A DNA stretch of 63,590 nt, counting the filler, from Collodictyon triciliatum (Eukaryota): assembly GCA_043381765.1 (NCBI GenBank). It is 5 parts of 5 records of this genome, joined end to end, with 100 filler letters (N's around TTAATTAATTAA, not from the genome) between each part and the next. Parts side by side here need not be neighbours in the genome. Positions count along the whole stretch, not along the records: positions 24,289 to 48,426 come from JBHJMP010001100.1; 4 more parts are not named here. One strand, written 5' to 3'. A model generated the notes under the pieces. That model did not search any database and was not told where the DNA came from. It saw only the letters and a list, made by a program, of their open reading frames with translations. The position numbers were made by a program, and so were the translations under genes. Shown here piece by piece: positions 3,301 through 58,650 of the stretch (the first letter of the stretch is position 1; every line of letters starts with the position of its first letter).

Positions 3301-6187
3301 GAGCTAGATTTCCAAATCATGAACTGCAGCACACCATCAGCACCCACATGCTTCTAGAAACAGTAGAGCACTTAAAGGTATTTGTTCATTGCCAGACTTT
3401 TTCTCTTTGAAATGGGCTCTATATCGAAATGGTTGCTTTAAATCACCTTTTAAGGATAAAATTCAATCGCCTCCTTCCATTTTATATGAATAATGAGTAA
3501 ATAACCCTTAATTATGGAATTTAGTCCCGTGGAAAGATACTTCCATGGTTTCATTTTATCGAATCCGATATTGTTCATGAAGGAGTCATTGAAACATATG
3601 ACAGTCTCAAAATTTGTATCAGTTGGTACTTTTTTTCTTCTATAACAACATATGAAGTCTTGCGAATTAAAAAAACAAAATACCACTTTTTTTTTTTTAA
3701 CAATAACAACTACCCCCTCCTCTAATTCATTCGTCTTCCCGATGACAGCTACAACTTATATGTTTTGGAGCAAAAACTTATGCACATTGAGAAGCAATTT
3801 TCGACGGCAATAAACATCCCACAGCTTTCGAGCGCTGAGGTGAGCCAACCTTTAAACTTCTTGCTCATATCTTATCTTTAAATTCTCATCTGAATTTAAA
3901 AAAATTTTTAAACCCCTCCCCTTATGATTGTATACGACCGCATCTATTTGCGACAAAAGCCAAAAGGTATAAAACTTATAAAAATTGAGCTAAGGGGAAA
4001 AAATCACATTCTCTAATTGTTTTATTTTTCCTTTCAATATGGGTAACTGAAGTTTTTATTCTTGAAGTTTATATATTATGACGCTTTTTCTCATTTCTCT
4101 CATGTATTGTTAGGACTGTGTATGACAAATCTTTGATCTATTTAGATGAGCAGTCAAGAGTCTTTCAACAATATGAGGTTCCGGCAGGATTGAAAGGATA
4201 TAGACTAATGGTTTTTCTACGATGTAAGAGAACTCCTGTTTGGAGAATATGTATCTGTTATAATATGACATGTTTTGTACAACTCTATAAGATACCATCT
4301 CGACACAGTCTTGATAAATGAAAAAAAAAATTATTTTTTTTTAGCTCTTGAGGGCTGCCCTAACCTAGAGAAGCTGTTTGGGGTGGCGTCCTATTCTCTT
4401 GTGTATAAATTGATGGGGAGAGTTATAAAGATTCCTCTTCCAAAAACTCATGGCTCTCAGATAGAAATATCCAATTTAAGGATATTCCATTTTTTTGTGC
4501 CCGACCCTGCTGGGATAAAGGAGTTCTTTAGAAGGGCAAAGGTTGCTTCTTCTTTCATTTTAACATGTACCCAAACAAAACGCTTTTTTTTTTTGCCTTG
4601 AAGTAGTAATTTGTATGTATGATAATTAAAAAGTAATAATGACATTGGTCTCTCTTTTATTCAGCCTTTTGATTTGTACTTGAGCTCTTCTCAGCTTCCC
4701 GTCCCTTGTTTATCTGTTCCGGTCCCACTTCAACACTTTGCGACATCTAATTTTTCACACATTGACTTAACACCTATACTGATGGCCAGAGGCGACTCTC
4801 CTTATTTTTGTGCCCATGTATGTATGAGAAGACACAAAGAACATAAGACGTGACCAATTTTTTATTTTAAATTTTGATCAACATTCACATAACCCTTTAT
4901 CTTACCTCTTTTTTTCTGCCTTATCATAACAAAAAAAACGTAATTCAAATGGAGCATCCAAACTTAACCTAACATGAAAATCGTCTCAGATAAGCATTGC
5001 GTATGCCCCCTGCAAGTATGTGAACCCTCAAATGTCCGGATCGCTGAAGTTTATATCGGGGGCGTATATTCCCTCGGCAGAGTTTTACACATGTGACCCT
5101 CTCCCAGATGAATGGGTTATGTCTATTCTGTCATTCAAGATGGAGCAAAAAAGTACTTATTATTTTTTTAAAAAAAATTTTTTAATAATATCCAATTCAT
5201 CAAGTGTATTTGTTGGGGAAAGGGAGAAATGGTGTGTTTAATTAATTATGCGACATATTCTACCTATGTAAAATAAAGCCTTTTCCTAGATTTCATTCAA
5301 TTATTTTCACTTTTTATGATGAATTAGGTGAGCCATCAACCTCAAGGTCATCGATGTCTGAGGTAATCGACCCCAGTAACAGCTTTATTATTTCGCATAT
5401 ATGATTTATTCATTTTGATAGATTCATGAGGGGGGAAATAATAAACTTGTATATCAATTTATTATATGAAGACATTCAGAAATAAGAAACTCTATGTAGT
5501 AGCACCCCAATTCAACCTTTTATCCAAACAATTAGAAAAGAAGAGAATTTGATCGCTCTGGAACTCCTAGGTGATTTTTTTTAATCTGCTGTTGATTCCC
5601 TTTATTCTATTCAAGGGATGAATTTGAGTATTTTTTTTTTATTGTGTTGTGATATTATATTATGCTGCAATATCTTGCTATAAAAATCTGGTAGCTTGCA
5701 AAAAAAAAAAAAAATTCATATAAGAACTATGGCATTATTATTTTGTAATTTCTACCCTTTTTTTTTTTTTTTTTTGCATCACCATGAGTTTAGTAAGTAG
5801 GTTCTAATCAATTATATACACCGTTGAGTAGAACAGCCGTTGTGGATAAACTTCAAGAGATTTGCTTATGGGTGATAAAAATACAGGTGAGAATATATAT
5901 ATGTTAGTGGCGATTTGATACTAGGGTTTTATTGAATGGATAGCTTATATATTTGATCTGGTGCGCTCTTTGCATTCATTACCACTATAAATTTTGAGAT
6001 TAATTTTTCATAACTGCTCTTCTTTAGCTACGTCGTATCGAGAATATTAATTTAAGTACGACCCAACCTGGATGGTCAGTTCAGTTTTCTATGATGGACG
6101 CCCATTACCGATTTCAAGTGGTATATTTTCAATATGAACAAAGGCTATTACAATTACAAAAAAAAATCCTGTTTCTCATTTATTTCT

Positions 6188-8773: not shown

Positions 8774-9921
8774 ATGAGCAAAGTGCGCGCCTCCAAGTAC
8801 CGCCACGTGTTCGGGACGGAATCCAAGAAGGAGCACTGCTACGACAACATCCGGGTGACCAACTCTGCGTTCGACTCCAACTTCATCAAGGCGAACAGCA
8901 GCTTCTTTGCGATCCAGTGGCAGTCGGCCGGGGGCGGCAGCTTTGCGGTGGTGCCGTACGGGCTGTCGGGCAAGCTGCCTGCGGACTATCCGCTGGTGAG
9001 CGGGCACTCGGGCAACATCCAGGACCTGGACTTCCATCCGTTCCACGACCAGCTGATTGCGTCGTCGTCCGAGGACTGCACGGTCAAGCTGTGGAGCATC
9101 CCGGAGGGCGGCCTGACCCAGACGCTGTCCGAGCCGCTGGTCACGCTGTCGGGCCATCAGAAGCGCTGCGGCGTCCTGCAGTTCCACCCCACCGCAAACA
9201 ACGTCCTGGCCTCCACGTCCGCCGACGGCGTCGCAAAGTTCTGGGATGTCGAGGCCGGCGCCTGCCACAACGAGGTTGCCGACCACCCGGATCTCATCCA
9301 GTCCTTCTCCTGGAGCTACGACGGCGCCCTCGCCGCCACCTCCTGCAAGGACAAGAAGCTGCGCCTGCTTGACCCCCGCACCAACCGCAGCGTCATGGTG
9401 CGTGCCACAGCCACAGCCACAGCCACATAACCACAGCCACATAACCACAGCCACAGCCACATAACCACAGCCTCAACCACATAACCACCCAGGAAACCGA
9501 GGGCCACGCCGGGGCCAAGGGCTCGCGCATCATCTTCGCGGGCAAGCAGAACCGCCTGGTCTCGGTCGGGTTCAGCAAGAGCAGCGAGCGCCAGTTCAAC
9601 GTGTGGGACGCGCGCAGCTTCACGGAGCCGATCGGCGTGTGCAACCTGGACAACTCGTCCGGCATGCTGATGCCCTTCTACGACGACGACTCCAACGTCC
9701 TGTTCCTCGCCGGCAAGGGCGACGGCAACATCCGCTACTACGAGATCATCGACGAGGCGCCCCACTACTACTTCCTCAGCGAGTACAAGACAAACGTCCC
9801 CCAGAAGGGCATTGCCATGCTGCCCAAGAAGGCCGTCAACGTCTCCAAGTGCGAGATCACCCGCCTCTACAAGGTCTCGGGCACCGCCGTCATCCCCATC
9901 GAGTTCACCGTGCCCCGCAAG
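8774..9921 (+). CDS. Coronin (WD40 actin-binding protein), exons 8774-9397 and 9493-9921; 3' end missing
   Basis: MSKVRASKYRHVFG N-terminal coronin signature, WD40 repeats, LMPFYDDDSNVLFLAGKGDGNIRYYE and FTVPRK motifs; GT-AG intron 9398-9492. Confidence 0.97.
9404..9490. repeat. Degenerate (GCCACA/ACCACA/CCACAT) hexamer array filling coronin intron 1
   Basis: Seen directly. Confidence 0.9.
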
Positions 9922-29494: not shown

Positions 29495-32400
29495 CTAAAG
29501 GTCTTCCATCGCGGGCACATAAGGTATCTTCACGACACGCCTTTCGAAGGTGAAACAGCGAGAAGGGTCGTTATAATACGACCAGAGACGACGACTGTTG
29601 ACCACCAGGATGTTGAACACAGCTAGTCGAAGCCCGCCCTCAGATTGCCACTCTCCTATCGGTGATTGTACCGTGCGGGGATATACGTCATAAATACAGC
29701 GCATCTCGAACAAAATCCAGAAGAGCAGAAGCCAAATTATCCCACTTAATACCGTCATCCAAACGATATCAGAAAATATCTTTGATAGCTTTCGTGCGCG
29801 TTCCCAGAGAACTTTCCATTTTAACTTTGAACGATGTTCCATATCAACAGCCCCTTTGCACAGGGCAGACTGGTGATTGGAGGGATGGTGATTTTGGCTG
29901 TTACTTGCTTGTGCTTTTTCGCTGAACAACTGACTCTGGTACATCTGAAATATCATCGAATAGCTCTTCATCAGTGCTCCCTCTACGTCATCAGTTAATC
30001 GTTGTCGTGTTTTCAGGGCTTCTGCAAGTTTTTCGACCTGACGATTATATGCTCCAAAAGGAATCGGGTTCGCATCAACCAAGCAGAATGTCAGGAAGCA
30101 GGAGTAAAGAGAAGGGAGGCACACAAAGACTCTTACACCTTCCCAACCTAGGTAATCAGCCAACAAGACGCAGAATAGTGTGCAGTTTCCCAAAAGGAAA
30201 CAGGTTTCAAAACTTCCCATTGCTCTAAAGACACTATCCTTCGAATATAGAAGTAATACCAACATTCGTTGGGCAAATAACCCGACAATAAGCGGCGTAG
30301 CAAGGAAATCCAATATAGTACTTTTGATACACAACTTAATGGAAACTGACATACCTCCCAGGAATACAATAATAACCAGCCTGGAACTCCATCTTCTTAA
30401 AGTATTTGACTTTGAGTCTGACCAATATCCCCCGAAAATGGCAGAAGATAAATTTTTACCCGAATCACATATAATACTCTCATGCAGAGGTGTTGAAATG
30501 AAGACCGGGCGACCTCTCATTAAAATATGTGGTTGGGAATCATATGATGCAATATTTTTCTCTTCTAGTTCTGTGTTTCCTTGATAATGAATGATGTTAT
30601 CACGGCTGTGGTTGTTGAATTTTCCGACGTGAACCGCGAGAGTAGACCTACGAGGTGAGTGTGAGTATGTGGGATTCCAGCCACGTTCATCTTCGTCAGC
30701 AGGAGATGTCGAAGTAATAGATAAGGAACGATGCCGTTCATGCTGAGGATTGGGATTTGCCTGTAATCCATTACTATCGGAATCACTGTTTTGCTCCTTG
30801 ATGTTTTTGTATAACATCGGTTTCACTTGCAAAGCTACTGATTCTTTCGGTATGTTCTCTGAATTATGAAAAACCGGTTGATTTGGAAGTGGAATTTCCA
30901 GGGCGCAGGCCATTTTCAGTTCATCTTCACTAAAATTGCATTTTACTGGATTATTTTTTGATGCAGTATCACCTACACCAGGCATATTGACATTTGTCAT
31001 GTCTTTTTGTGTGTCATCGCTATTTGAACACAAGGAGTGAGTGTGATTCATTTGTTTGGCTTCAAATGATCCATGCACTTGGTTAGTATAATCCATACAA
31101 GGCTGTGGGTCTGATATTGAATGAAAATCTGCTTCGGGGTCTAAAATCTCAAGCTTTTGATGCATATTGCCTGATGAACTATCTAGAGACGTCGACACCG
31201 GGCGATTTTGGTGTATTTTACGCGTAGAGATCTTGAAGTTGTATTGGGGAGTTGGAAGAGAAGACGTATGCGAAATTTCTTGGTTGGTTAGAGTATCTAG
31301 AGTGTCCCCACTTGCCTCCATTGCCTTGGGTATATCCTCTGTAACCTCAAAAATTGACTCTAGATTAGTTACCAAGTTTTCTGATTTTGAGGTGCGTCTC
31401 TTTCTGTAAGAAGGAGAATCGGGAAGGTAGTTATGGATACGAACTGATAGTGATTTATTTTTCGAAGCTCCTATCCCACTTAAACCATCGATGGATGATG
31501 ATTGAGAGAGCAAATCAATTCGATCATTACTTTGAGCACAAGTTGAAAGGTTGTATAAACTTTGCATGGATGGAAGTGATGAAGTTATGCAAGGGGCAGG
31601 AAAGGCTTCACCCGATTCTTGAAGTTGGCCTTCCAATTGGAGAATAGGAATCCAGGAGGCTACTAATGGAATACGAACCATTCTCCTGTTAATACAATGT
31701 ACTTTGAGGGGATAAAGAATATTTAGGACGAGCCTACGAAAGCTGAATAGAAGCACGTTAATGCAACACGCGCGGAAGATACCAAGGGTACTGATTTCGT
31801 TTCGGAATAAGTAGATTGAGCGAGGATAGATTGCGGGAATGACGCCGCATTCGACAAAAAAGTACATAAGGGTGGGAGTAGATGTAGCCATCAAAAATAC
31901 TGCGACTGTGTTAAGGCCAAGACTGTGTAAAAGTTCGATCCGGCGGTAAAGGAAGGTGAGAAACCCACGACCAGCTCGCGGATAATGAAGCATGAGTCTG
32001 TAAAAATTACGGCAGATACGCACATATCGCGACGGATGGCGGATTGGGCCGGTCTCTGGGGCATTATGTCGGTCATGATTCTGGGGCGACTTTTGTTCTT
32101 GAATGCGATTGAGGATTCGTTGTACCTGCCCAAAGCTCACTGGCCATGCGTCCATAAAAACGATATTGAAATAGCAGAGACAAAACATAGGGACCATGAA
32201 GTAGGCCTCGAAGGACCAATCAAGTAAGTCCCCGAAAGTTAAGACGGTAAGTGCGATGTTGAATAGAAGAAACAAGGATTCAAAGTGGGCCAAGGCGAGA
32301 CGAAATATCTTTGGCTGGAAGGTCAGGATTGAAATCGTGTTGTAGAGCATCCCACATATGGCGAACGATGCATACAGAATTCGAACGTGCACTCGAGGGT

Positions 32401-32785
32401 CTGGCTGGTGGATTGCCACAAAGAACCATAACACAGAAGCAAAAAGCGCCAAAAACAAAAAGTTTCCAAAGCGGCGAAAGAAGTAGCGGATGAGCCAGCG
32501 AGAAAAATGATGTCCAAACCATTCTGATGCGAACGTGACAGAAAAGTCGACGGGCATCAGGAAATCAACGTCACTAAAGAGAACAAGCCTTTTTCGAAAA
32601 TCATCTTCCTCCACTCCAGCTCGCAATATGTCTGCACTTGGACATTGCCTCTCCCCACCAATACAGCTCCCATGCTCGATAGGGTTTTGATTTTCCTCAG
32701 GTCGATCACTTACGCTGCTGGAACCAGCTTGGTGGTTGGGTGCAAAGCCATGGTCATCTCCGTTGTCCCCTCCACCGTTCTCCAT
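29495..32785 (-). CDS. Intronless ~1100-aa polytopic membrane protein with two homologous ~6-TM modules separated by a long disordered linker
   Basis: Single ORF (ATG MENGG at 32785). Module 1 FESLFLLFN..FGDLLDW..FMDAWP..IYPR..NVLLFSFRRL..RRMVRIP aligns by eye with module 2 FETCFLLGN..LADYLGW..LVDANP..VYPR..NILVVNSRRL..RRVVKIP. Confidence 0.88.
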   Translation of the reverse strand: MENGGGDNGDDHGFAPNHQAGSSSVSDRPEENQNPIEHGSCIGGERQCPSADILRAGVEEDDFRKRLVLFSDVDFLMPVDFSVTFASEWFGHHFSRWLIRYFFRRFGNFLFLALFASVLWFFVAIHQPDPRVHVRILYASFAICGMLYNTISILTFQPKIFRLALAHFESLFLLFNIALTVLTFGDLLDWSFEAYFMVPMFCLCYFNIVFMDAWPVSFGQVQRILNRIQEQKSPQNHDRHNAPETGPIRHPSRYVRICRNFYRLMLHYPRAGRGFLTFLYRRIELLHSLGLNTVAVFLMATSTPTLMYFFVECGVIPAIYPRSIYLFRNEISTLGIFRACCINVLLFSFRRLVLNILYPLKVHCINRRMVRIPLVASWIPILQLEGQLQESGEAFPAPCITSSLPSMQSLYNLSTCAQSNDRIDLLSQSSSIDGLSGIGASKNKSLSVRIHNYLPDSPSYRKRRTSKSENLVTNLESIFEVTEDIPKAMEASGDTLDTLTNQEISHTSSLPTPQYNFKISTRKIHQNRPVSTSLDSSSGNMHQKLEILDPEADFHSISDPQPCMDYTNQVHGSFEAKQMNHTHSLCSNSDDTQKDMTNVNMPGVGDTASKNNPVKCNFSEDELKMACALEIPLPNQPVFHNSENIPKESVALQVKPMLYKNIKEQNSDSDSNGLQANPNPQHERHRSLSITSTSPADEDERGWNPTYSHSPRRSTLAVHVGKFNNHSRDNIIHYQGNTELEEKNIASYDSQPHILMRGRPVFISTPLHESIICDSGKNLSSAIFGGYWSDSKSNTLRRWSSRLVIIVFLGGMSVSIKLCIKSTILDFLATPLIVGLFAQRMLVLLLYSKDSVFRAMGSFETCFLLGNCTLFCVLLADYLGWEGVRVFVCLPSLYSCFLTFCLVDANPIPFGAYNRQVEKLAEALKTRQRLTDDVEGALMKSYSMIFQMYQSQLFSEKAQASNSQNHHPSNHQSALCKGAVDMEHRSKLKWKVLWERARKLSKIFSDIVWMTVLSGIIWLLLFWILFEMRCIYDVYPRTVQSPIGEWQSEGGLRLAVFNILVVNSRRLWSYYNDPSRCFTFERRVVKIPYVPAMEDL

Positions 32786-33452
32786 ATTGTGAGCGCCTGT
32801 CCTACAACACACTCGATCAGTGCTCTGAGTAAATTATTTTTTGGGGAGCGAGCATCTTCTGCGTGTTATCAATGACTTGGTGCATTTGTGCTTAACCATA
32901 GCCTGATCTATTGCGTGTTGTTGACTGTGCTTTACAAAAGGATGGAAGAAAACTAGTTGTTTGTCAACAGCTCCTGTTTCATTTACGAACGAGTGCTATG
33001 CGACAGGCGAACGACGCAAAGAAGCACATTTCGTTTGTGGGGCACACTGGCGCAAATGAGAGACTAAAGTGGAAATTTTGAAGCGGTAATCCTTTAAGAA
33101 TCCATCCATTTGCGGAAGCGATGCTGGGCAAAAAACTACATAAAAAATGTTTCTCAAAAAGGATGCCAGTCCAATTCACGCGTTTCTCTTAACAGGGGCA
33201 ATTCTCCGTTATTTTCATGCGCTCTTAAACATGTAGAATATATAAAAAAAATCAAACAATTCACGAACTATTCCATTTTCTTCAAAATAGCTTATCAAAC
33301 ATATTTAAATTATATTCCGCATTTAGATGAGGAATTCTCGTACTTTTGCCGCAAATCTGGTATGGTGAATTAAAAAAAAAAGAAAGATAAAGATGATAGC
33401 CGTCGCTTGTTGTGGGGAAGTTTATTGGGTTGGCCACAGTCGGGCGAGGGCA

Positions 33453-41674: not shown

Positions 41675-43536
41675 TCAGTTTTCGTCCAGAGGTGCCCAAA
41701 AGAACGTATTTGGAATATCTCCATTATTGGGTGACTCACCCAACCGAAAAGATATACGAGAATCACCCAAACCTGCCCTGGTCTGATCGATTTCGGCATT
41801 CCTAGACTTTGTCAAGTCTAGTGCGAGGTCTGCATACCGCTGACGAATCTCACAACTAGACAACTTCCATTCGATAGATGTTTCTCTTACAAATGCGTGG
41901 TTGTTAAAAGCAATCCCATCCTTTTTTAAGGCACTTCTTTTCTCGGTCAAAAAGGCCATGAATCCATTAATTGGTCTTTTCTTCTTTGGCTTCGTAGATT
42001 TGCCAACTCTATTTCTTTTTTCGAGGAGAGGATCTAATACTGGTGAATGGATACGAATTGAAATCAGATTGAAGGGAACCGTAAAATGATAATGCAATTT
42101 CCATATGCGACTGCTTTTTTCAATTCCTAATGTTTTTTTTTTTTGGCTTTGTTCTTTTTCTTTATTTGCCTTTTTTTTCTTTTTTGTAAAATAATATATA
42201 AATAGAGAAAGATAGAGGTATAATAACACAGGCTGCAGAGGTGTTTGGGTGGTTAGTAAAATATCTTGTCACCAAAATTTGAGGAGACTTCATGTACCTT
42301 TAGACTCACTAGGACTGTCACCTCGGTCAGATGAGACCTTCCCATTACACGTTGGGGTAGCGTCTGTTAATTCTTGTTCTTCAAGCTGATAGTCCTTCGG
42401 CGAGTCCTCGTCATTCCGTCTAGGTCTTCGTTGGTCACTATTTTCTGAACTCCCAGAAAGGGAAGGAATGTCGGGATTTTTGTCCCTGCTGCATAATTTC
42501 TTTGATTTTCGCATGGACGGATCTACAAGGATGAAATTTGGAGAATTACTGGAGTTTGGAGTCAGCAGAAAGCTTTCGGTGAGGTGTCCGTGCTTGTCAT
42601 ACTTTGCAGTATGAGATGCATCCTCGGCTGATTCGCACCCTGCTTTACCCTCATTGAACTTTGTGTGTGTTTGTGGATGGAAGGAAGCATCCATGTCATA
42701 GGGATTCTTTTTGAAATCTTGTGCTGGGTAACTGAATGATGAATTTGGTGTTTTTCCAAGGAAAATTCTCATTTCTGACCTTTGGCTGGAACTGCTGTTG
42801 GTAGATTCAATTCGCTGCTCTTCCTGATTCATCTCGAGATATTCCTCGCCACAGAAAGCACTGGTCTTTGTTAAGTTCACTGGGCAAATAAAGTCATTAA
42901 ATTTGGTATCATGGTGTGTTTGCCGTGCACCATCAAATGATGTGATATCCACATATTTTGCACCGGCATTGCAGCACAAGCTGTATAATTCATTATTGGA
43001 GGCTTTTGTTAGACTAACAAATGGTCCTGTCTTGATTGCTGAGCATCTTTCTTGCATGTGATAAAGCGTATCAAAATCTCTATCGTAAATATCCGAAGTC
43101 TTCGACTCTCTAGGCATTTGGGGAAAAAAAAAGTACCGTCAGTGCAACCAGTCATTCATAAAAAAACAAATAAATAATTGTTCAACTTATAGGAACGGCA
43201 ACTTTTAATTTAAAAAAGAGAGATCATGTATTCATAATTACAAACAAACAACAAACCATCACATATTAGAATACAGATAAATCTATGATTTAAATTAAAT
43301 TGTATCATTTACGTTTGCTGCCTTTGTTCAAAATGTACAGAATGGGCTACATCAAAATCTGAAAATAAGCTATTCACAAAATCGATCATCTCTTCTTGGT
43401 CCTCAGAAATATCTCTAAAACGATTTATGGACTTGAATCAACCCATGACATTTGCGTGAGTGATTTACACGCAGAAAAAAAGAAGGGCACTCAAGTAGGG
43501 GGAAAAAAAAAGAAGGGAGAAGTACCTTCCCGACAT
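41675..43536 (-). CDS. HMG-box transcription factor-like protein (may have further upstream exons to about 44520)
   Basis: Last exon KKKRPINGFMAFLTEKRSAL...NNHAFVRETSIEWKL..EIRQRYADLA is an HMG box; large exon about 42296-43110; upstream exons MSGR|DISEDQEEM...EQRQQT join in frame. Confidence 0.75.
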
Positions 43537-44705: not shown

Positions 44706-45657
44706 ATGGCTTTGTTTCAAGAGGAAAAAATCAAATGGCGCTCACGCAGACCAATCTTAGACGACATCCCGTCGCCATTCTTTTTCCACCTCAAGAACGA
44801 AAGCTCGTCTAACGGTGTGCAGTCTATGCAGTTCTCGATGGCTATGGCCTACTCCAAATTCTTTCGATACAAAATATCGCCGCCGACAACTCTACAAAAA
44901 GTCAAAGCATCAACGGTGGGGAGAAACGCTAGGCATCACCCACACCCCGCTCACCGCGAGCTGGAGACAAGCACGAACCCCGCAAGTCCTTTCAAATCAC
45001 CGCTCTCTAATGCATAATATCACCAATAGGTAGCTATGGATAGGCACACGCGCGACAAAAGCTGGCAAGGTCTCCCAACAATGCACACTTTGCAGCAACA
45101 GTGATGAGTCCATTGAGCATACATTTGTGCAATGTCCCTTCGCTCAAAACCTGCGCGAAACAGCCGGTGTGATTCTTCGACTGACACTCAAGACGGCTGC
45201 AGCTATTGGCCCAATCCAGGTGATATTTGGGCCTCTGCAACTACTGCATCCAGATGCGAAAACATTCTGGGCATTGACGCGAGGCCATTTGCTATGGACT
45301 ATGTGGATAGCACGCACGTACTCTCGCAAAGCAAGACTCAACAACCAGCCACTCATTCCTGATAACAGGCTGAATGACATCATACAATTCTCTTTCCTCA
45401 ATAGCTTTCTTCGCCACCTGCACGTTCTCTACTACTCGGACGCTGTGAGAAGAAACATGTGGATAGAGGCTGAGAAAGATATATAACCTCGCCTTGTATC
45501 TCTCATGCAAGCACAAGACCCAGGCCACAGGCCACAGGCCAAAGCGCAGGATGCAATTCCTGATGGTCGTCCACTCCGCCACACGGCAGACAAGAAGCAT
45601 TCGTACAAACAGAGATTACAAAACTATACTGCCTTGTACAAATTCAAGATAAAAAAA
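44706..45657 (+). mobile_element. Degenerate 3' fragment of an L1/Tx1-like non-LTR retrotransposon ORF2 (family B)
   Basis: zf-RVT-like CTLCSNSDESIEHTFVQCPFA...TRGHLLWTMWIAR motif with in-frame stops/frameshifts; A-rich end near 45657; homologous to 57996-58391 (minus). Confidence 0.82.
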
Positions 45658-45919: not shown

Positions 45920-47971
45920 TCATCGAAACCTAAGGTCACCAAGAATACTGGCCCACACCTCTTCCTCAGACCCATACTTTCCGATGAGATTGCGGTATCG
46001 ATCTCTGCAGTCGAGATTGTTTCTGTCAAACTTTTTCAATTTCATGGAAATGTATTTCCAGGAGGAACCTTTTTTACGTTCGGACACTAATATGAAATCT
46101 TCCTGTGAATGCCACACAAATCTTTGGCGGTGTCCAGATGTCAAGTAAATCGGACGAGTTTTAGACTCTTCGCCTGTTGCCTTTATCTTTGGCAAGGATC
46201 TATGTTTCTTGGGCAGGCGAACACGCTCTAGAATATCTCTAAACACCTCAATATAATGCTCCAGTTCTGAGATATCTCGTCCGAGATGTTCTCTAACGTG
46301 GGCTCTTGCAACCTGGCACACTATACTTATTTTTGTGCGTGTGGCCATTCTTTTTCTATCCCTGCTAAGTTGCTTTCTTACCTGTTGCTCTAACCCAGGA
46401 GTAGACTTTACAAACATCGAAAAGCAATGACGCATGACAAATGGGAAATCTATCTTTTCCTGACTTTGGTCATCCATTTTGTTCTTTATTAGGCCCTTCA
46501 TTCTTGCCAAAAAGGATTTGTAATTAACACCAGCTTCCCAAGATGAAGGCTTCAGTTTTATCTTGTGAATTTTTTCAGAGTTGGATAAGCCGTCAACCTG
46601 GTTGTCATAACCAGACCATTCCTCCTCATCGATTTCGATGGGTGGCGGGACTGTTCTAATGATGTATGAGTCTTTTGATAGATTCAACTCCGATTTACTT
46701 TTCGGTTCCCATCCAGAACAGTCGAGATCATTCTTTGAATAGGTTTCCTTTTGATTAGCAGCATAATTCTGCTGAATCACAGCCATTTTTTGAAAGCCAG
46801 CGCGAAAGCTATCAAAAGAGAACATGTTAGGAGGAAAACCAGCTTGGACAGCTCGAGTTTTTATATTTTTACTCATCGCGGCAGACTTCATACCCCATAG
46901 ATACGTTTCTTGGAGCTCTTGCGATAGATTCCAGTTTTTAAAATTGATAAGCTCCAGAGAAAACTTTTCGCGAAGGTATAGCTCAAACCAATAGAGAATA
47001 TTCAGAGAGGATTTTAATCCGATGTTACCTTCTAGAGAGACCATTTGGTTATGTTCAGGATTCCCTTTAGCAACTTTTAAAAGAATATGTATGCAGTGAG
47101 AATCTGAGGAGCTCCTGGGTAGTTTAGAAAAACTAAGGATGTGGCCAATTTTCATGTGCTGAAAGGTAATAGACCTTGCCCCCGTCGATAAAGCCATTAA
47201 CCAGAGGCTTGCCTCTTTGGCTTTGGATGAGAAACCATCCGGAATGCAGTCTATGATTCTTGCTATATCAGATATTAAAATGGGCTCTTTTCTCGTGGGA
47301 GTTTCTTGGTCAAAAGCTAAATTGCGTAATGTATCAATAGTCTCTTTAATTGTGGGACCGATATCTGGCGAAAGCTCTGATGGATATTGAATTTTATTAA
47401 TTCTTCTTAAGCCAGGAATAATTATAAATTTAACACTATCTATGGCATAGCCTGCATCCCTGACCAAAAAAATAATGAATTTCTCGATTGTTTCAGGCTG
47501 TAGAGGCCATGGCTCTCTGGATGACTTTTTGCAAAATTCTTGGTACATTTCTTTTGACCAGCTATCCTTTCGGACAGTCGACTTTGAGTGGCTAGTTGGG
47601 GAACTGTATGAATGATCCACTGGATTCAACTCTCTTATATCAAGAGCCTGAAATCCCATAGAAATTTTCCGCAATCTTTGGGATAGGTCAAACAGGGGTT
47701 CGCATGGTGTAGGGTTCATTTTTCTTTTCTTTTTAGACTCTTTACTATCAACATATTCTTCAGCACTCCAGTCGGGGTCTAAATCGCTGTCGGATGAAAT
47801 ATAGTCTTGCTCATAGTCCATATCGTCTCCAATATGAACGTATGTCTCAGAGTCAGACACCTCGAGGGTAGTCGAACAGCAATTAAGTTCCCAATCCCCC
47901 TGGTCTTCAACAGTTATAGGAATATAGCAGTTGGTTGCCAGACCAACAACATAGAATACATCCTCTTCCAT
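45920..47971 (-). CDS. Tyrosine recombinase (Crypton/DIRS-like YR fold) fused to a C-terminal Myb/SANT domain; catalytic residues apparently altered
   Basis: Uninterrupted ORF from ATG 47971. Integrase core-binding-like helices (MYQEFCKK..PWPL..IEKFIIFL), LMALSTGAR, KVAKG, FSFDSFRAG, GWEPKS; C-term WHSQEDFIL..GSSWKYI..RNNLDCRDRYRNL is a Myb repeat. Confidence 0.85.
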   Translation of the reverse strand: MEEDVFYVVGLATNCYIPITVEDQGDWELNCCSTTLEVSDSETYVHIGDDMDYEQDYISSDSDLDPDWSAEEYVDSKESKKKRKMNPTPCEPLFDLSQRLRKISMGFQALDIRELNPVDHSYSSPTSHSKSTVRKDSWSKEMYQEFCKKSSREPWPLQPETIEKFIIFLVRDAGYAIDSVKFIIIPGLRRINKIQYPSELSPDIGPTIKETIDTLRNLAFDQETPTRKEPILISDIARIIDCIPDGFSSKAKEASLWLMALSTGARSITFQHMKIGHILSFSKLPRSSSDSHCIHILLKVAKGNPEHNQMVSLEGNIGLKSSLNILYWFELYLREKFSLELINFKNWNLSQELQETYLWGMKSAAMSKNIKTRAVQAGFPPNMFSFDSFRAGFQKMAVIQQNYAANQKETYSKNDLDCSGWEPKSKSELNLSKDSYIIRTVPPPIEIDEEEWSGYDNQVDGLSNSEKIHKIKLKPSSWEAGVNYKSFLARMKGLIKNKMDDQSQEKIDFPFVMRHCFSMFVKSTPGLEQQVRKQLSRDRKRMATRTKISIVCQVARAHVREHLGRDISELEHYIEVFRDILERVRLPKKHRSLPKIKATGEESKTRPIYLTSGHRQRFVWHSQEDFILVSERKKGSSWKYISMKLKKFDRNNLDCRDRYRNLIGKYGSEEEVWASILGDLRFR

Positions 47972-48374
47972 GGCCTTCTGCGATATTCTTTGAGAGAAAA
48001 TAACCTTAATAAAAAGAAGGCACGACTTAAAAATAAGAATGATAATGAAAAGGCAGAGGAAGCCAAGGGAACCTTGAGGAACAATACAAAAAAAAGCTGG
48101 TGACGGGCGGCTGCAGAAGCGTTGATCAGAACGCTGATGGTCTGTTAAGGATGGGTTAGGGATTTTTATTAGGGACAACTGCTTTCCGCTGGATGATAAA
48201 ACTATCTTGCTTTTCTGATTCACGCAATCATCTACGCCCCAGTACCCAGAGTTTCCTAGTTATTTTCTGCTTCGTTTTTTACTTCTTTTTTTTTTTTTTT
48301 CAGTATATTCCAGGGTTTTTTTGTTTGGGTTTTATTATTGTGATCTCTCCACTGAATATATTCTGTTTTGTTTA

Positions 48375-50934: not shown

Positions 50935-51599
50935 GGCTGTGGTTGTTGCTGCAAGTATGGTTATTTCGCTCGCTTGGTCGTCTCAACATGCCTCGGAGAT
51001 AACCGGGTAATGCTAGGCATTGTATCCGGCTTTGCTGCTTTGCACACAACACAAGAGCGTGTTCGTCTTTTATTTTCTTTTTCTCTCTTTCTTTTTCTTC
51101 TTTCTTTTTCTTCTTTTTTTTCTCTTTCTTTTTCTTCTTTTTTTTTCTCTTTCTTTTTCTTCTTTCTTTTTCTTCTTTCTTTTTCTTCTTTCTTTTTCTT
51201 CTTTCTTTTTCTTCTTTCTTTTTCTTCTTTCTTTTTCTTCTTTCTTTTTCTTCTTTCTTTTTCTCTTCCTTTTCTCCTTCTTTTTTTCGAAGCCCGCTCT
51301 GACTGAAAAGCAAACTGCAACTTGACCACATGTCGAAAAGGCCGAAGGATCGGAAGGAAACGACATCGCAAAAACGGATCGCACAAAACACAAACGTGGA
51401 TTAGAACGCATCACCACAAACGCGTTTCTTGATGAACATTCGAATAGTTAAATAATATCTGGAAATTATAATTCTGTGGTGTTATTTAGCACTTGTTGTC
51501 ATATTAATGGTCACCCATGCATAAAAGTGATTCAACATATCTCCAATCATGCATTTTATTGACTAATTTTCTAAACACCAAACCCTTGTTGAGTCTGGC

Positions 51600-52442
51600 T
51601 CTTTCTACATTTCATCTACAACATGAAAGGCACTTTGCTGAATCTCAGAAGGCTGAGCGAGCTGGAAGACACCTGCCGCAGATTCATCACTACCAATAAT
51701 CAAAAATATAAAATCAAGACACAAGCCCGCGTATATCAGTTACTCCCGAAACACCGCGCCGTACCTCTCAATATCTCCAACAGAGAGCTGTGGATAGGTG
51801 CGCGTGTAGTCCATGCAGCAACGACTCCTCCAGAATGCGCCATGTGCCATAGTGGAGATGATTCTATCAAACACACTTTTGTGGAGTGCTCCCTTGCTCT
51901 AAAAGTGACAGAATCTACCCACAAGATGCTCTCTGAGCTTGATTATGCTCCCAACCGACTCAGCGCGTCCGACATCTTGTTTGCCCCACAATACCAAATG
52001 ACCTACGACTCTAGAATACTTTGGACAGTCACAAGGGGACATATGCTGTGGTTATTATGGAGTGTGCGCGCATTCTCCCGCTCTAATGATTCACCCGAAC
52101 GAGAAATCAGTGTATCCAGGCTTGAAAGCCTCGTGCAATACAGCTTCCTGAGCAGTCTGCTGAAACACGCTCGCATTCTTCGCTACTCTGACCGCAAACG
52201 GAGAGAGATGTGGGAATATGTCGTGAGATATCTCCCAAAGCATATCCAACCCCTGCTGCCCACGCAACCAATCAACCAGTTGGGACGCCCACCTGACCAG
52301 CTCGCTATCACTGATTTCTTTCCAGTGCTACCTTCCCAAAAGTGTCGTCTTCTATTCGCGTTTGCTCTCTCCTATGCGCTCCCATCCCGCCCCTTTGTAT
52401 GGCATAGCCTCGCTGCACTTAGAATCGAATAAAGGAAAAAAG
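51600..52442 (+). mobile_element. 5'-truncated L1/Tx1-like non-LTR retrotransposon ORF2 3' end (family A), frame still open
   Basis: CAMCHSGDDSIKHTFVECSLA (CCHC zf-RVT), TRGHMLWLLWSVR; AATAAA plus A-rich tail at about 52428-52445; second copy at 57772-58650. Confidence 0.85.
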
Positions 52443-57771: not shown

Positions 57772-58650
57772 TCACACAAGATGCTCCCTCCGAGGTTGAC
57801 TATGCCCCAACCGACTCAGCGCGTCCGACATCCTATTCGACCTGCAATACCAAATGACCCATGACTCTGGAATACTCTCGGCGGTCACAAGGGGGCATAC
57901 GTTGTGGTCCTTACGGAGTGTGCGTGCGTTATCTCGCTCTAATGATTCGACCGAAAGAGAAATCAATCTATCCAGGCTTGAACGCTTTATCCAAATTTTT
58001 TTTTTATTCTTCCTTTCAATTTTTTGCAGGATGGTGGAGATGTTGGCTTTGGTTCGCTAGCCATCGTTTGCATGGGCGCTACTTGGTGACCGGGTGGCGG
58101 AGAAGTAGTCGGTAATCAGTAATTGCATCCTGCGGTTTGGCCTGTAGCCTGGGTCTTGTGCTCGCATGAGAGGTACAAGGTGAGGTTTAATCTCTTTCTC
58201 GGTCTCTTTCCATATGTCTCTTCTCACAGGGTCTGAGTAGTACTGAACGTGCAGGTGGCGAAGGAAGTCATTGAGGAAAGAGATTTGTATGGTGTCATCC
58301 AGTCTATTATCAGGAGTGGATGGCTGGTTGTTGAGCTTTGCTTCGCGTGAGTATGTGCGTGCTATCCACATAGTTCATAGCAAATGGCCTCAAAGCAATA
58401 CAGCTTCTTGAATGGCCTGCTAAAGCACATCCGCATTCCCTGCTACTCTGGCCGCAAGCGAAGAGAGATATGGGATAGTGGTGAAACATCATCTCGATAT
58501 ATTCAGCCCTTACTAACCACCGAGCCTATCAACCAGTCATTTCACCCGCCTGACCAATACGCCATCACTGATTATTTCTCGTAATGCCGTATCCCTGTTT
58601 ATGTCTTACCACTGCGATTAAGCCAAATCCCGTCGCGCTTCTGCTAGTCA
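57772..58650 (+). mobile_element. Decayed family A LINE 3' fragment, interrupted by a family B insertion
   Basis: 57772-57994 and 58395-58650 are colinear with 51918-52400. Confidence 0.88.
57996..58391 (-). mobile_element. Family B LINE 3' fragment with poly(A) tail, nested antisense in the family A copy
   Basis: Begins with a T run at 57996 on +; the minus strand encodes MWIARTYSREAKLNNQP..., homologous to 45280-45590. Confidence 0.9.

What the first reader, a model, noticed from the sequence alone, without database searches (positions are those of the whole stretch)
46660..47180. YR active site looks disabled while the ORF stays intact
Seen: the first Arg (TGAR, 47174-47176) and a Lys (KVAKG) are present, but the H-x-x-R box reads D-S-F-R (GAT at 46811-46813, one base from CAT). 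After GW (46709-46714), the position where the nucleophilic Tyr is typically expected (GWxxxSxxxxxY) is Leu (46679-46681). A Tyr five residues later (DSY, 46664-46666) could substitute. Inference: catalytic loss with 2 kb of preserved frame, next to visibly decaying LINE fragments, suggests selection for DNA binding only, such as a transcription factor or a dominant-negative repressor of active relatives.
Basis: partly seen in the sequence, partly recalled or inferred. Interest (0 to 1): 0.72.

Follow-up and report, generated by a model that had tools for sequence, protein, structure and literature searches.

The report
Dead telomere-transposon recombinase kept by host
A freshwater protist keeps an intact gene for a DNA-cutting recombinase whose cutting site has decayed while its DNA-gripping parts have not; its working relatives look like small mobile elements that sit in telomere repeats, so this may be a jumping-gene enzyme tamed into a telomere-type DNA-binding protein.

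Summary
Among 151 homologues the His column is H in 132 of 132 and the Tyr column Y in 121 of 123; here they are D483 and L527. The DSY Tyr column is not conserved. Contigs from two other freshwater studies carry both codons. Erosion is confined to residues 483-545 (11 of 18 conserved columns changed, against 5 of 55 elsewhere), which neutral decay does not reproduce. The intact relatives form a protist family that I found in no paper: single-gene units of about 3 kb beside TTAGGG or TTGGGG repeats (17 of 25 loci, about 6 independent cases), some in reshuffled tandem arrays. Best reading: a catalytically dead, selectively kept DNA-binding derivative in a Diphylleia-related (CRuMs) host, probably reading TTAGGG-type DNA. 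Expression, copy number, orthologues and binding are untested. Earlier notes of this scan saw recombinase-telobox fusions in other genomes, without a tested telomere link.

The parts
45920..47971 (-). Probable coding sequence of the dead YR-Myb protein, 683 aa from M97 (context GCC-ATG-G); the open frame extends to 48259
   Evidence: start codon inferred
47660..47971 (-). Acidic N-terminal extension with a basic NLS-like stretch (SKKKRK); not modelled
   Evidence: sequence; function inferred
47315..47587 (-). Core-binding (SAM-like) domain, residues about 225-315, as family-typical as in intact homologues
   Evidence: (0 of 7 conserved columns changed)
46655..47287 (-). Cre-like catalytic domain, residues about 325-535
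   Evidence: Z 17.9, rmsd 3.9, 283 aligned to 2hof_B
47174..47176 (-). R362, first catalytic Arg, kept
   Evidence: R in 144/144
47066..47068 (-). K398, catalytic Lys, kept
   Evidence: K in 145/145
46811..46813 (-). D483 in place of the invariant His of H-x-x-R
   Evidence: H in 132/132
46802..46804 (-). R486, second catalytic Arg, kept
   Evidence: R in 132/133
46709..46711 (-). W517 (His/Trp-III position), kept
   Evidence: W in 121/121
46679..46681 (-). L527 in place of the nucleophilic Tyr
   Evidence: Y in 121/123
46664..46666 (-). Y532 (DSY), not a conserved position
   Evidence: A47, T20, V16, L11, Y1
46625..46813 (-). Eroded segment, residues 483-545 (H-x-x-R helix to the helix after the Tyr), in frame with the family profile
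46145..46624 (-). Family-specific helical linker domain, residues 546-705
   Evidence: no Atlas hit
45974..46129 (-). C-terminal Myb/SANT domain with an N-x-D-C-R-D-R-Y-R recognition helix
   Evidence: 0 of 9 conserved columns changed
48153..48174 (+). Two TTAGGG hexamers 13 nt apart, about 180 nt upstream of the ATG; the only such cluster in the window; possible relic junction or self-binding site (weak)
   Evidence: 13 of 5000 shuffles; junction likeness not significant (238 of 4000)
45034..45486 (+). Neighbouring LINE 3' fragment (zf-RVT), context only

Best explanation
The gene is a catalytically dead descendant of a Crypton-like, single-gene tyrosine-recombinase element whose intact relatives sit in telomeric repeats. 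Its Diphylleia-related host keeps it under purifying selection as a sequence-specific DNA-binding protein. Inferred for the parent element: a Cre-like clamp plus a Myb domain recognises a junction made of telomere repeats and a short conserved motif, excises the roughly 3 kb unit as a circle and re-integrates it at such junctions, building head-to-tail arrays. Inferred for this gene: the core-binding domain, the N-terminal catalytic lobe with both Arg and the Lys (which can still grip the phosphate backbone) and the Myb were kept. The His, the Tyr nucleophile and the following subunit-linking helix drifted, so it binds but neither cuts nor synapses. Its likeliest target is TTAGGG-type DNA: telomere or subtelomere chromatin, interstitial telomere motifs, or the junctions of active relatives, which it would block. 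Shown: residue loss, localised erosion, fold, the family's link to telomere repeats. Inferred: mobility mechanism, expression, target and role.
For: His and Tyr are nearly invariant in the family and lost here, and the codons recur in other samples. Conserved columns changed: 11/18 in 483-545 against 5/55 elsewhere, Fisher p=2e-5; 0 of 112 homologues are as eroded there. Profile score there is -0.9 bits/residue against 1.97 +/- 0.48, while the other four regions score within the homologue range. No other frame matches the family profile, so a compensated frameshift does not explain it. Neutral simulation: the implied extra change of about 54% needs about 0.4 substitutions per site; from 0.1 per site upward 0 of 2000 runs kept the ORF open. 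Cre-like fold, nested inside the family. 17 of 25 homologous loci have 2 or more tandem telomere units against 0 of 1000 shuffles. One array unit has three different downstream neighbours and another has two. L002 closes as a circle or tandem. Monocercomonoides holds several near-identical members. The gene lies on an internal host scaffold among host genes, with no tandem telomere repeat. Precedents: DUF3504 genes (PMC3212892), MrpR (PMC10516654).
Against: No orthologue with the same dead site was found, so there is no dN/dS and no synteny. No genome was available for copy number or for active relatives. The Myb scores as well or better against c-Myb-type repeats than against TRF1/2, and the window's own Myb search listed no TRF among 8 hits, so TTAGGG binding is not shown. 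The host telomere repeat is inferred from Mantamonas (PMC10492846). 8 of 25 loci lack tandem repeats, among them L004 and L008 with more than 800 nt of upstream flank. The 11 TTGGGG loci are probably one host, and array orders could include mis-joins through shared ends. The loci were collected with a pattern that requires the intact His.
Confidence: 0.62

Rival explanations
1. The protein is kept by selection on a mobile element, not on the host. It is the accessory or repressor gene of a non-autonomous or two-gene element mobilised by an active relative, like MrpR in prophage SP-beta.
For: The family is mobile. A telomere-hexamer pair lies about 180 nt upstream. Dead YR repressors are known in phages (PMC10516654; YopR, MrpR and SroF appear).
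Against: No second YR in the window (tblastn), no tandem telomere repeat, junction likeness not significant. No family member among 151 shows this dead state.
Confidence: 0.12
2. It is a dominant-negative subunit that joins tetramers of active relatives and poisons them.
For: The core-binding domain and N-terminal catalytic lobe are as conserved as in active members.
Against: The helix after the Tyr, which links subunits in Cre (recalled), is eroded here, gains prolines and is modelled with low confidence. Active relatives in this host were not shown. Relatives found are at most 41% identical.
Confidence: 0.08
3. It keeps partial chemistry. R362, K398, R486 and W517 activate the scissile phosphate, and the nucleophile comes in trans from a partner (Flp-like, recalled), from water, or from Y532.
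For: Four of the six catalytic positions examined are intact, more than in DUF3504 proteins, which lost the Tyr and the second Arg (PMC3212892).
Against: The His is also lost and the surrounding helices have drifted. The Y532 column is unconserved. The ends of the structural alignment put model 327 (L527) at Cre 324 (inferred from ranges, not residue by residue). Arg and Lys also serve DNA binding.
Confidence: 0.09
4. It is a recently killed copy decaying neutrally, and the open frame is luck.
For: GAT is one base from CAT. No RNA evidence and no orthologue were found. LINE debris flanks the gene.
Against: CTA differs from either Tyr codon at all three positions. 11 of 18 conserved columns changed in one segment and 5 of 55 elsewhere. 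0 of 2000 neutral runs stay open at 0.1 substitutions per site or more.
Confidence: 0.06
5. The substitutions are sequencing or assembly errors.
For: The scaffold is a gappy short-read assembly; the confirming contigs are shallow and GAT lies near a contig end.
Against: Contigs from two other studies match both codons, and the erosion spans about 60 residues.
Confidence: 0.02

Closest known systems
Crypton DNA transposons, especially CryptonF (YR + C-terminal GCR1_C) and CryptonV (microsatellite-targeting) (PMC3212892, PMC8869645, passages read; GCR1_C recalled)
   Same: Single-gene eukaryotic YR element, no long terminal repeats, proposed circular intermediate; repeat-specific insertion in CryptonV.
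   Different: The C-terminal domain here is Myb. None of 65 members hits DUF3504, DUF3435, NDC10_II or GCR1_C at E<=0.01. The flanking repeat is telomeric, and units form head-to-tail arrays of divergent members.
Domesticated Crypton (DUF3504) genes KCTD1, KIAA1958, ZMYM2-4, QRICH1 and WOC; Ndc10 (PMC3212892, PMC3537659, passages read)
   Same: YR fold kept after loss of the catalytic Tyr; likely DNA-binding regulators. WOC colocalises with telomeres according to PMC3212892.
   Different: Independent origin from another YR family, in CRuMs. Both Arg and the Lys are kept, the core-binding domain is kept and a Myb is fused. No orthologues are known yet.
Telomere-associated YRs of endogenous nimaviruses (PMC10871703, passages read)
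   Same: YR-mediated insertion into telomere repeats, with concatemers or episomes.
   Different: Those are viruses of about 280-400 kb in crustaceans, and the paper never mentions Myb. Here the units are about 3 kb and single-gene, and no relative was found in viral contigs. Relatedness of the two YR groups was not tested.
Starship DUF3435/MYB hybrid captains (PMC12256816, passages read)
   Same: YR fused to Myb/SANT.
   Different: No DUF3435 hit, no cargo, non-fungal named hosts, telomeric flanks.
MrpR/YopR and SroF phage repressors (PMC10516654, passages read)
   Same: Recombinase fold turned into a pure DNA-binding protein.
   Different: Bacterial. MrpR keeps Tyr and Lys and lost the Arg and His residues, nearly the opposite pattern.
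TRF1/TRF2 telobox proteins
   Same: Single C-terminal Myb with a K/R-D-R-x-R recognition helix (telobox motif recalled); the family profile hits TRF1/2 at about 27 bits.
   Different: No TRFH domain was seen. c-Myb repeats score about 30 bits per domain, so the match does not discriminate.

Membership tests
Tyrosine recombinase superfamily (fold) | Core-binding plus catalytic domain with the Cre/Int fold | tested here: met
   Foldseek E 2.8e-6 to Tre/Cre; Z 17.9, rmsd 3.9, 283 aligned; model pLDDT 86
Active tyrosine recombinase | R-K-H-R-H/W-Y catalytic set | tested here: not met
   R, K, R, W present; H is D and Y is L
YR-Myb telomere-repeat element family (defined here) | Homology over the YR, linker and Myb, nested in the family tree | tested here: met
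   (quick tree; nearest sister unresolved)
YR-Myb telomere-repeat element family (defined here) | Gene flanked by tandem telomere repeats and a junction motif | tested here: not met
   No tandem repeat in the window; only two spaced hexamers; junction likeness p about 0.06
Crypton (parent family) | YR is the only enzyme, no reverse transcriptase | tested here: met
   Array units of about 3 kb carry one long ORF; no RT family among Pfam hits of members
Crypton (parent family) | YR falls in a described Crypton clade (A, F, I, S, V) | tested here: inconclusive
   No DUF3504, NDC10_II or DUF3435 hit in 65 members; no Repbase sequences available for a tree; Atlas neighbours are unnamed or Phage_integrase, ALOG and NDC10_II clusters at about 0.92
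Crypton (parent family) | 4-6 bp terminal direct repeats and empty sites | not testable with these tools
   Ends lie in telomere repeats; no host assemblies could be fetched
DIRS/Ngaro/VIPER YR retrotransposons | RT/RNase H and gag ORFs with split or inverted LTRs | tested here: not met
   Complete units between successive repeat tracts hold only the YR-Myb ORF
Starship captain | DUF3435 domain at the edge of a large cargo element | tested here: not met
   0 of 65 members hit DUF3435 at E<=0.01; units about 3 kb
Domesticated transposon gene | Purifying selection after loss of catalysis | tested here: met
   Indirect, one lineage only:
Domesticated transposon gene | Single copy, syntenic orthologues, expressed | not testable with these tools
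   No genome held; no orthologue found; no RNA run listed
Telobox (TRF-like) Myb | Recognition helix closer to TRF than to other Myb repeats | tested here: inconclusive
Telobox (TRF-like) Myb | Binds double-stranded TTAGGG | not testable with these tools
   Needs EMSA or ChIP

The most novel reading that the evidence does not exclude
A widespread, undescribed class of minimal protist DNA elements uses a Cre-like recombinase fused to a telomere-reading Myb to integrate into telomere repeats and build shuffled cassette-like arrays. In a CRuMs lineage one such enzyme has been disarmed and recruited as a host telomere-binding protein, a shelterin-like factor born from the telomere's own parasite that may also shut out its active relatives.
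Probability: 0.3. Interest if true: 0.9.

Novelty: new variant of a known kind. Interest (0 to 1): 0.74.

Why it matters
There are two things of value. First, the parent family: sequence-specific DNA transposons are rare in eukaryotes (PMC8869645), and YR-based telomere targeting is in the papers I saw only for giant nimaviruses (PMC10871703). A 3 kb, one-gene YR-Myb unit found in oxymonads, an amoebozoan and uncultured protists would be a minimal, testable system for integration into TTAGGG or TTGGGG arrays, with bearing on subtelomere turnover and possibly on site-specific integration tools. Second, this gene: an independent recombinase domestication caught with a clean signature (only the cutting and subunit-linking segment eroded) in a deep-branching, little-studied lineage. 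It makes the question of whether telomere proteins can arise from telomere parasites directly testable.

Tried and rejected
Own-genome search: no genome is held, so copy number and paralogues are open. Orthologue hunts gave no dead-site orthologue: 1 hit, intact; top 150 of 343 listed; the other 193 not seen; 0 of 854 short candidates. No RNA holder was listed; this is no evidence either way. No relatives in viral contigs or prokaryote genomes. A compensated frameshift was rejected. Y532, Y499, Y507 and Y551 as substitute nucleophiles were rejected on conservation. The likeness of 48175-48198 to the L007 junction looked striking by eye but was reached by 238 of 4000 random 24-mers and 209 of 4000 shuffles, so it is not claimed. 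A QRFCSR match to the homologues' N-terminal zinc finger upstream of M97 (E 0.81) is not claimed. The three variants in other samples (V537I, S220S, D215N) are too few for a selection test. The Atlas gave no hit for the linker plus Myb. The tree is the quick one, on 107 rows (window residues 225-482; homologues P0002-P0100 with at least 215 residues there, plus locus ORFs), and does not resolve the sister group. No complex prediction was run. Literature searches that showed no description of this family. Repbase Reports, subscription journals and supplements were not searched and could hold it.

Full report
OBSERVATION. The window is eukaryotic (coronin, an HMG-box gene, LINE pieces and other host-like ORFs). 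Its coronin exon is 84% identical to a Diphylleia rotans protein and 60% to Rigifila ramosa, so the host is most likely a diphylleid (CRuMs); this rests on one gene. The minus-strand frame 45920-48259 is open for 779 codons, with a likely start at M97 (47969-47971, context GCC-ATG-G).

PLACING THE ACTIVE SITE. The word-indexed search found one homologue, P0002 (33% identity over 576 columns). It aligns without a gap through HSLR...GW-x9-Y against DSFR...GW-x9-L. The exhaustive search found 343 relatives at E<=0.001, of which the best 150 were listed. In a MAFFT alignment of these and P0002 (151 rows), counting rows with a residue in the column: R362 is R in 144/144, K398 K in 145/145, D483 H in 132/132, R486 R in 132/133, W517 W in 121/121 and L527 Y in 121/123. 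The two exceptions show run-off sequence, and 119 of 120 rows covering both columns have H and Y. The Y532 column is A47, T20, V16, L11, Y1. The query itself carried D and L, so the search did not favour intact sites. The AlphaFold model (pLDDT 86) is Cre-like: Foldseek E 2.8e-6; Z 17.9, rmsd 3.9, 283 residues, model 14-344 on Cre 24-341. The range ends put model 327 (L527) at Cre 324, the nucleophile named in PMC13465315; this is an inference from ranges. Contigs from two other freshwater studies carry GAT (X2, 257 nt, 0 differences, codon 5-7 nt from the end) and CTA (X4, 151 nt, one difference elsewhere) (4 of 7 listed runs laid).

IS THE REST UNDER SELECTION? Among columns at least 70% conserved, the window protein differs at 11 of 18 in residues 483-545, where the homologue mean is 15% and 0 of 112 homologues are as bad. 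Elsewhere it differs at 5 of 55: core-binding 0/7, N-terminal catalytic lobe 4/37, linker 1/2, Myb 0/9 (Fisher p=2.2e-5). Leave-one-out profile scores are -0.9 bits per residue in that segment (homologues 1.97 +/- 0.48, 0 of 111 lower) and ordinary in the four other regions. No other frame matches the family profile, and the segment aligns in frame. The extra change implied in the segment is about 54%. Random point mutation of the ORF reaches that at about 0.4 substitutions per site, yet 0 of 2000 runs stay free of stops from 0.1 upward, and 2.4% at 0.05 (indels were not modelled, which makes the test conservative). So the catalytic end of the domain was released from constraint long ago while the rest was not. 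This is a one-lineage argument: no orthologue was found and no genome was held.

The protein ends in a Myb domain (Pfam E 0.001, below the curated cut-off); 36 of 65 aligned members hit Myb_DNA-binding and 8 hit Phage_integrase. Named members come from Monocercomonoides exilis (several copies within 90% clusters), Blattamonas nauphoetae and Balamuthia mandrillaris (20 proteins looked up, plus 5 unnamed). No relative was confirmed in viral contigs or prokaryote genomes. A metagenome scan gave 25 loci (its pattern required the intact His). 17 of 25 carry two or more tandem telomere units, against 0 of 1000 shuffles.

Six of these loci, five distinct elements, have TTAGGG: L001/L003 (three units upstream and a tract of about 20 units at the downstream contig end), L005, L007 (opposite orientation), L020 and L021. 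Eleven have TTGGGG, read with genetic code 6, and probably come from one host. There, divergent units of about 3 kb (around 70% identical), each with one ORF and intact H and Y, lie head to tail. Each starts with a TTGGGG tract and a short CAACT/CTACT-type motif and ends in a shared tail of about 45 nt. One unit (L013, L016, L017; 99.9% identical) has three different downstream neighbours and another (L019, L024) has two. L002 has a 155-nt terminal repeat inside its ORF (circle or tandem) and a degenerate repeat plus the motif. Against: L004, L006, L008, L015, L023 and L025 show no repeat (L022 is an internal piece of an array unit); some are short, but L004 and L008 have over 800 nt of upstream flank. 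Mis-joins through shared ends could inflate the variety of array orders. The Myb helices of two TTAGGG-flanked loci (L001, L002) read N-x-D-C-K-D-R-W-R and those of the TTGGGG clade mostly V-R-E/D-R-A-R; the window's N-L-D-C-R-D-R-Y-R resembles the first group, but L007 and L020 differ. Searches of solved structures rank c-Myb-type repeats as high as or above TRF1/2, so telobox identity is not established.

THE WINDOW LOCUS. There is no tandem telomere repeat and no second YR in the 63.6 kb. The gene sits between a LINE 3' fragment (45034-45486) and an assembly gap at about 48.4 kb, among host genes. The only pair of close TTAGGG hexamers in the window lies at 48153-48174, about 180 nt upstream of the ATG (13 of 5000 shuffles of that 400-nt stretch; noticed after the fact). 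Its likeness to element junctions is not significant. Mantamonas, another CRuMs member, has TTAGGG telomeres (PMC10492846, one passage read); the host's own repeat was not seen.

MECHANISM. Parent (inferred from anatomy and from the YR chemistry summarised in PMC3212892): the Cre-like clamp and the Myb bind a telomere-repeat junction, excise the unit as a circle and re-integrate it at such junctions, so arrays grow and reshuffle. This gene (inferred): the DNA clamp, both Arg, the Lys, the Trp and the Myb are kept; the His, the Tyr and the subunit-linking helix (role in Cre recalled) are lost; it binds but cannot form the phosphotyrosine intermediate. I put 0.62 on a host-kept DNA binder, most likely for TTAGGG-type DNA; 0.12 on an element-level accessory or repressor; 0.09 on residual or trans chemistry; 0.08 on heteromer poisoning; 0.06 on neutral decay; 0.02 on error.

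COMPARISON AND NOVELTY. Dead YRs reused as regulators are known: DUF3504 genes (PMC3212892, PMC13465315), Ndc10 (PMC3537659) and MrpR (PMC10516654). YR targeting of telomere repeats is known for nimaviruses (PMC10871703), microsatellite targeting for CryptonV (PMC8869645), and YR-Myb fusions for Starships (PMC12256816). For each of these papers, and for PMC2868851 (TRF1 Myb recognises TTAGGGTTA), I read keyword passages only, not whole texts or supplements. Searches showed no description of single-gene YR-Myb elements in telomere repeats; Repbase Reports were not searchable. Earlier notes of this scan report YR-telobox fusions in three other genomes with no tested telomere link; I did not test whether they belong to this family, and sequence look-ups returned nothing. 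One note (e1-7415845) pointed to the Starship hybrids, which I then read. Verdict: a new variant of known kinds (Crypton-like element; domesticated recombinase), interest 0.74.

Noticed in passing
L009-L014, L016-L019, L022, L024: Head-to-tail arrays of divergent YR-Myb units of about 3 kb separated by short TTGGGG tracts, in a host that reads TAA/TAG as Gln; the order of units varies between contigs, like a cassette array.
   Followed up: yes
L002:1-155 and 3413-3567: A 155-nt terminal repeat inside the YR ORF: a possible excised circle of about 3.4 kb, with one degenerate telomere-repeat junction at 2114-2132.
   Followed up: partly
L021:7356-9248 and L023:3-593: DDE_Tnp_1_7 (piggyBac-like, recalled) transposase pieces next to YR-Myb genes; other elements share the niche.
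   Followed up: partly
L007:3599-3671: A tRNA-Met gene about 250 nt beyond the telomere-repeat junction of this element.
   Followed up: no
alignment A1 members: 3 of 65 family members carry a Chromo domain and 1 a C2H2 finger.
   Followed up: no
window 41675-43138: An HMG-box gene (Pfam E 5e-7) probably split by an intron near 42270-43140, 3 kb from the YR gene.
   Followed up: no
window 45281-45586, 51593-52432, 57775-58573: Several LINE 3' fragments (zf-RVT) of two subfamilies, copies about 83% identical, one nested in inverted orientation inside another near 58.1-58.4 kb.
   Followed up: partly
window 29495-32833: An intronless ORF of 1112 aa with two hydrophobic blocks and no Pfam hit at E<=1.
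   Followed up: no
window 8774-9400: The coronin exon has GC3 of 0.92 against 0.34-0.52 for the five other stretches tested: strong codon bias in this host.
   Followed up: no
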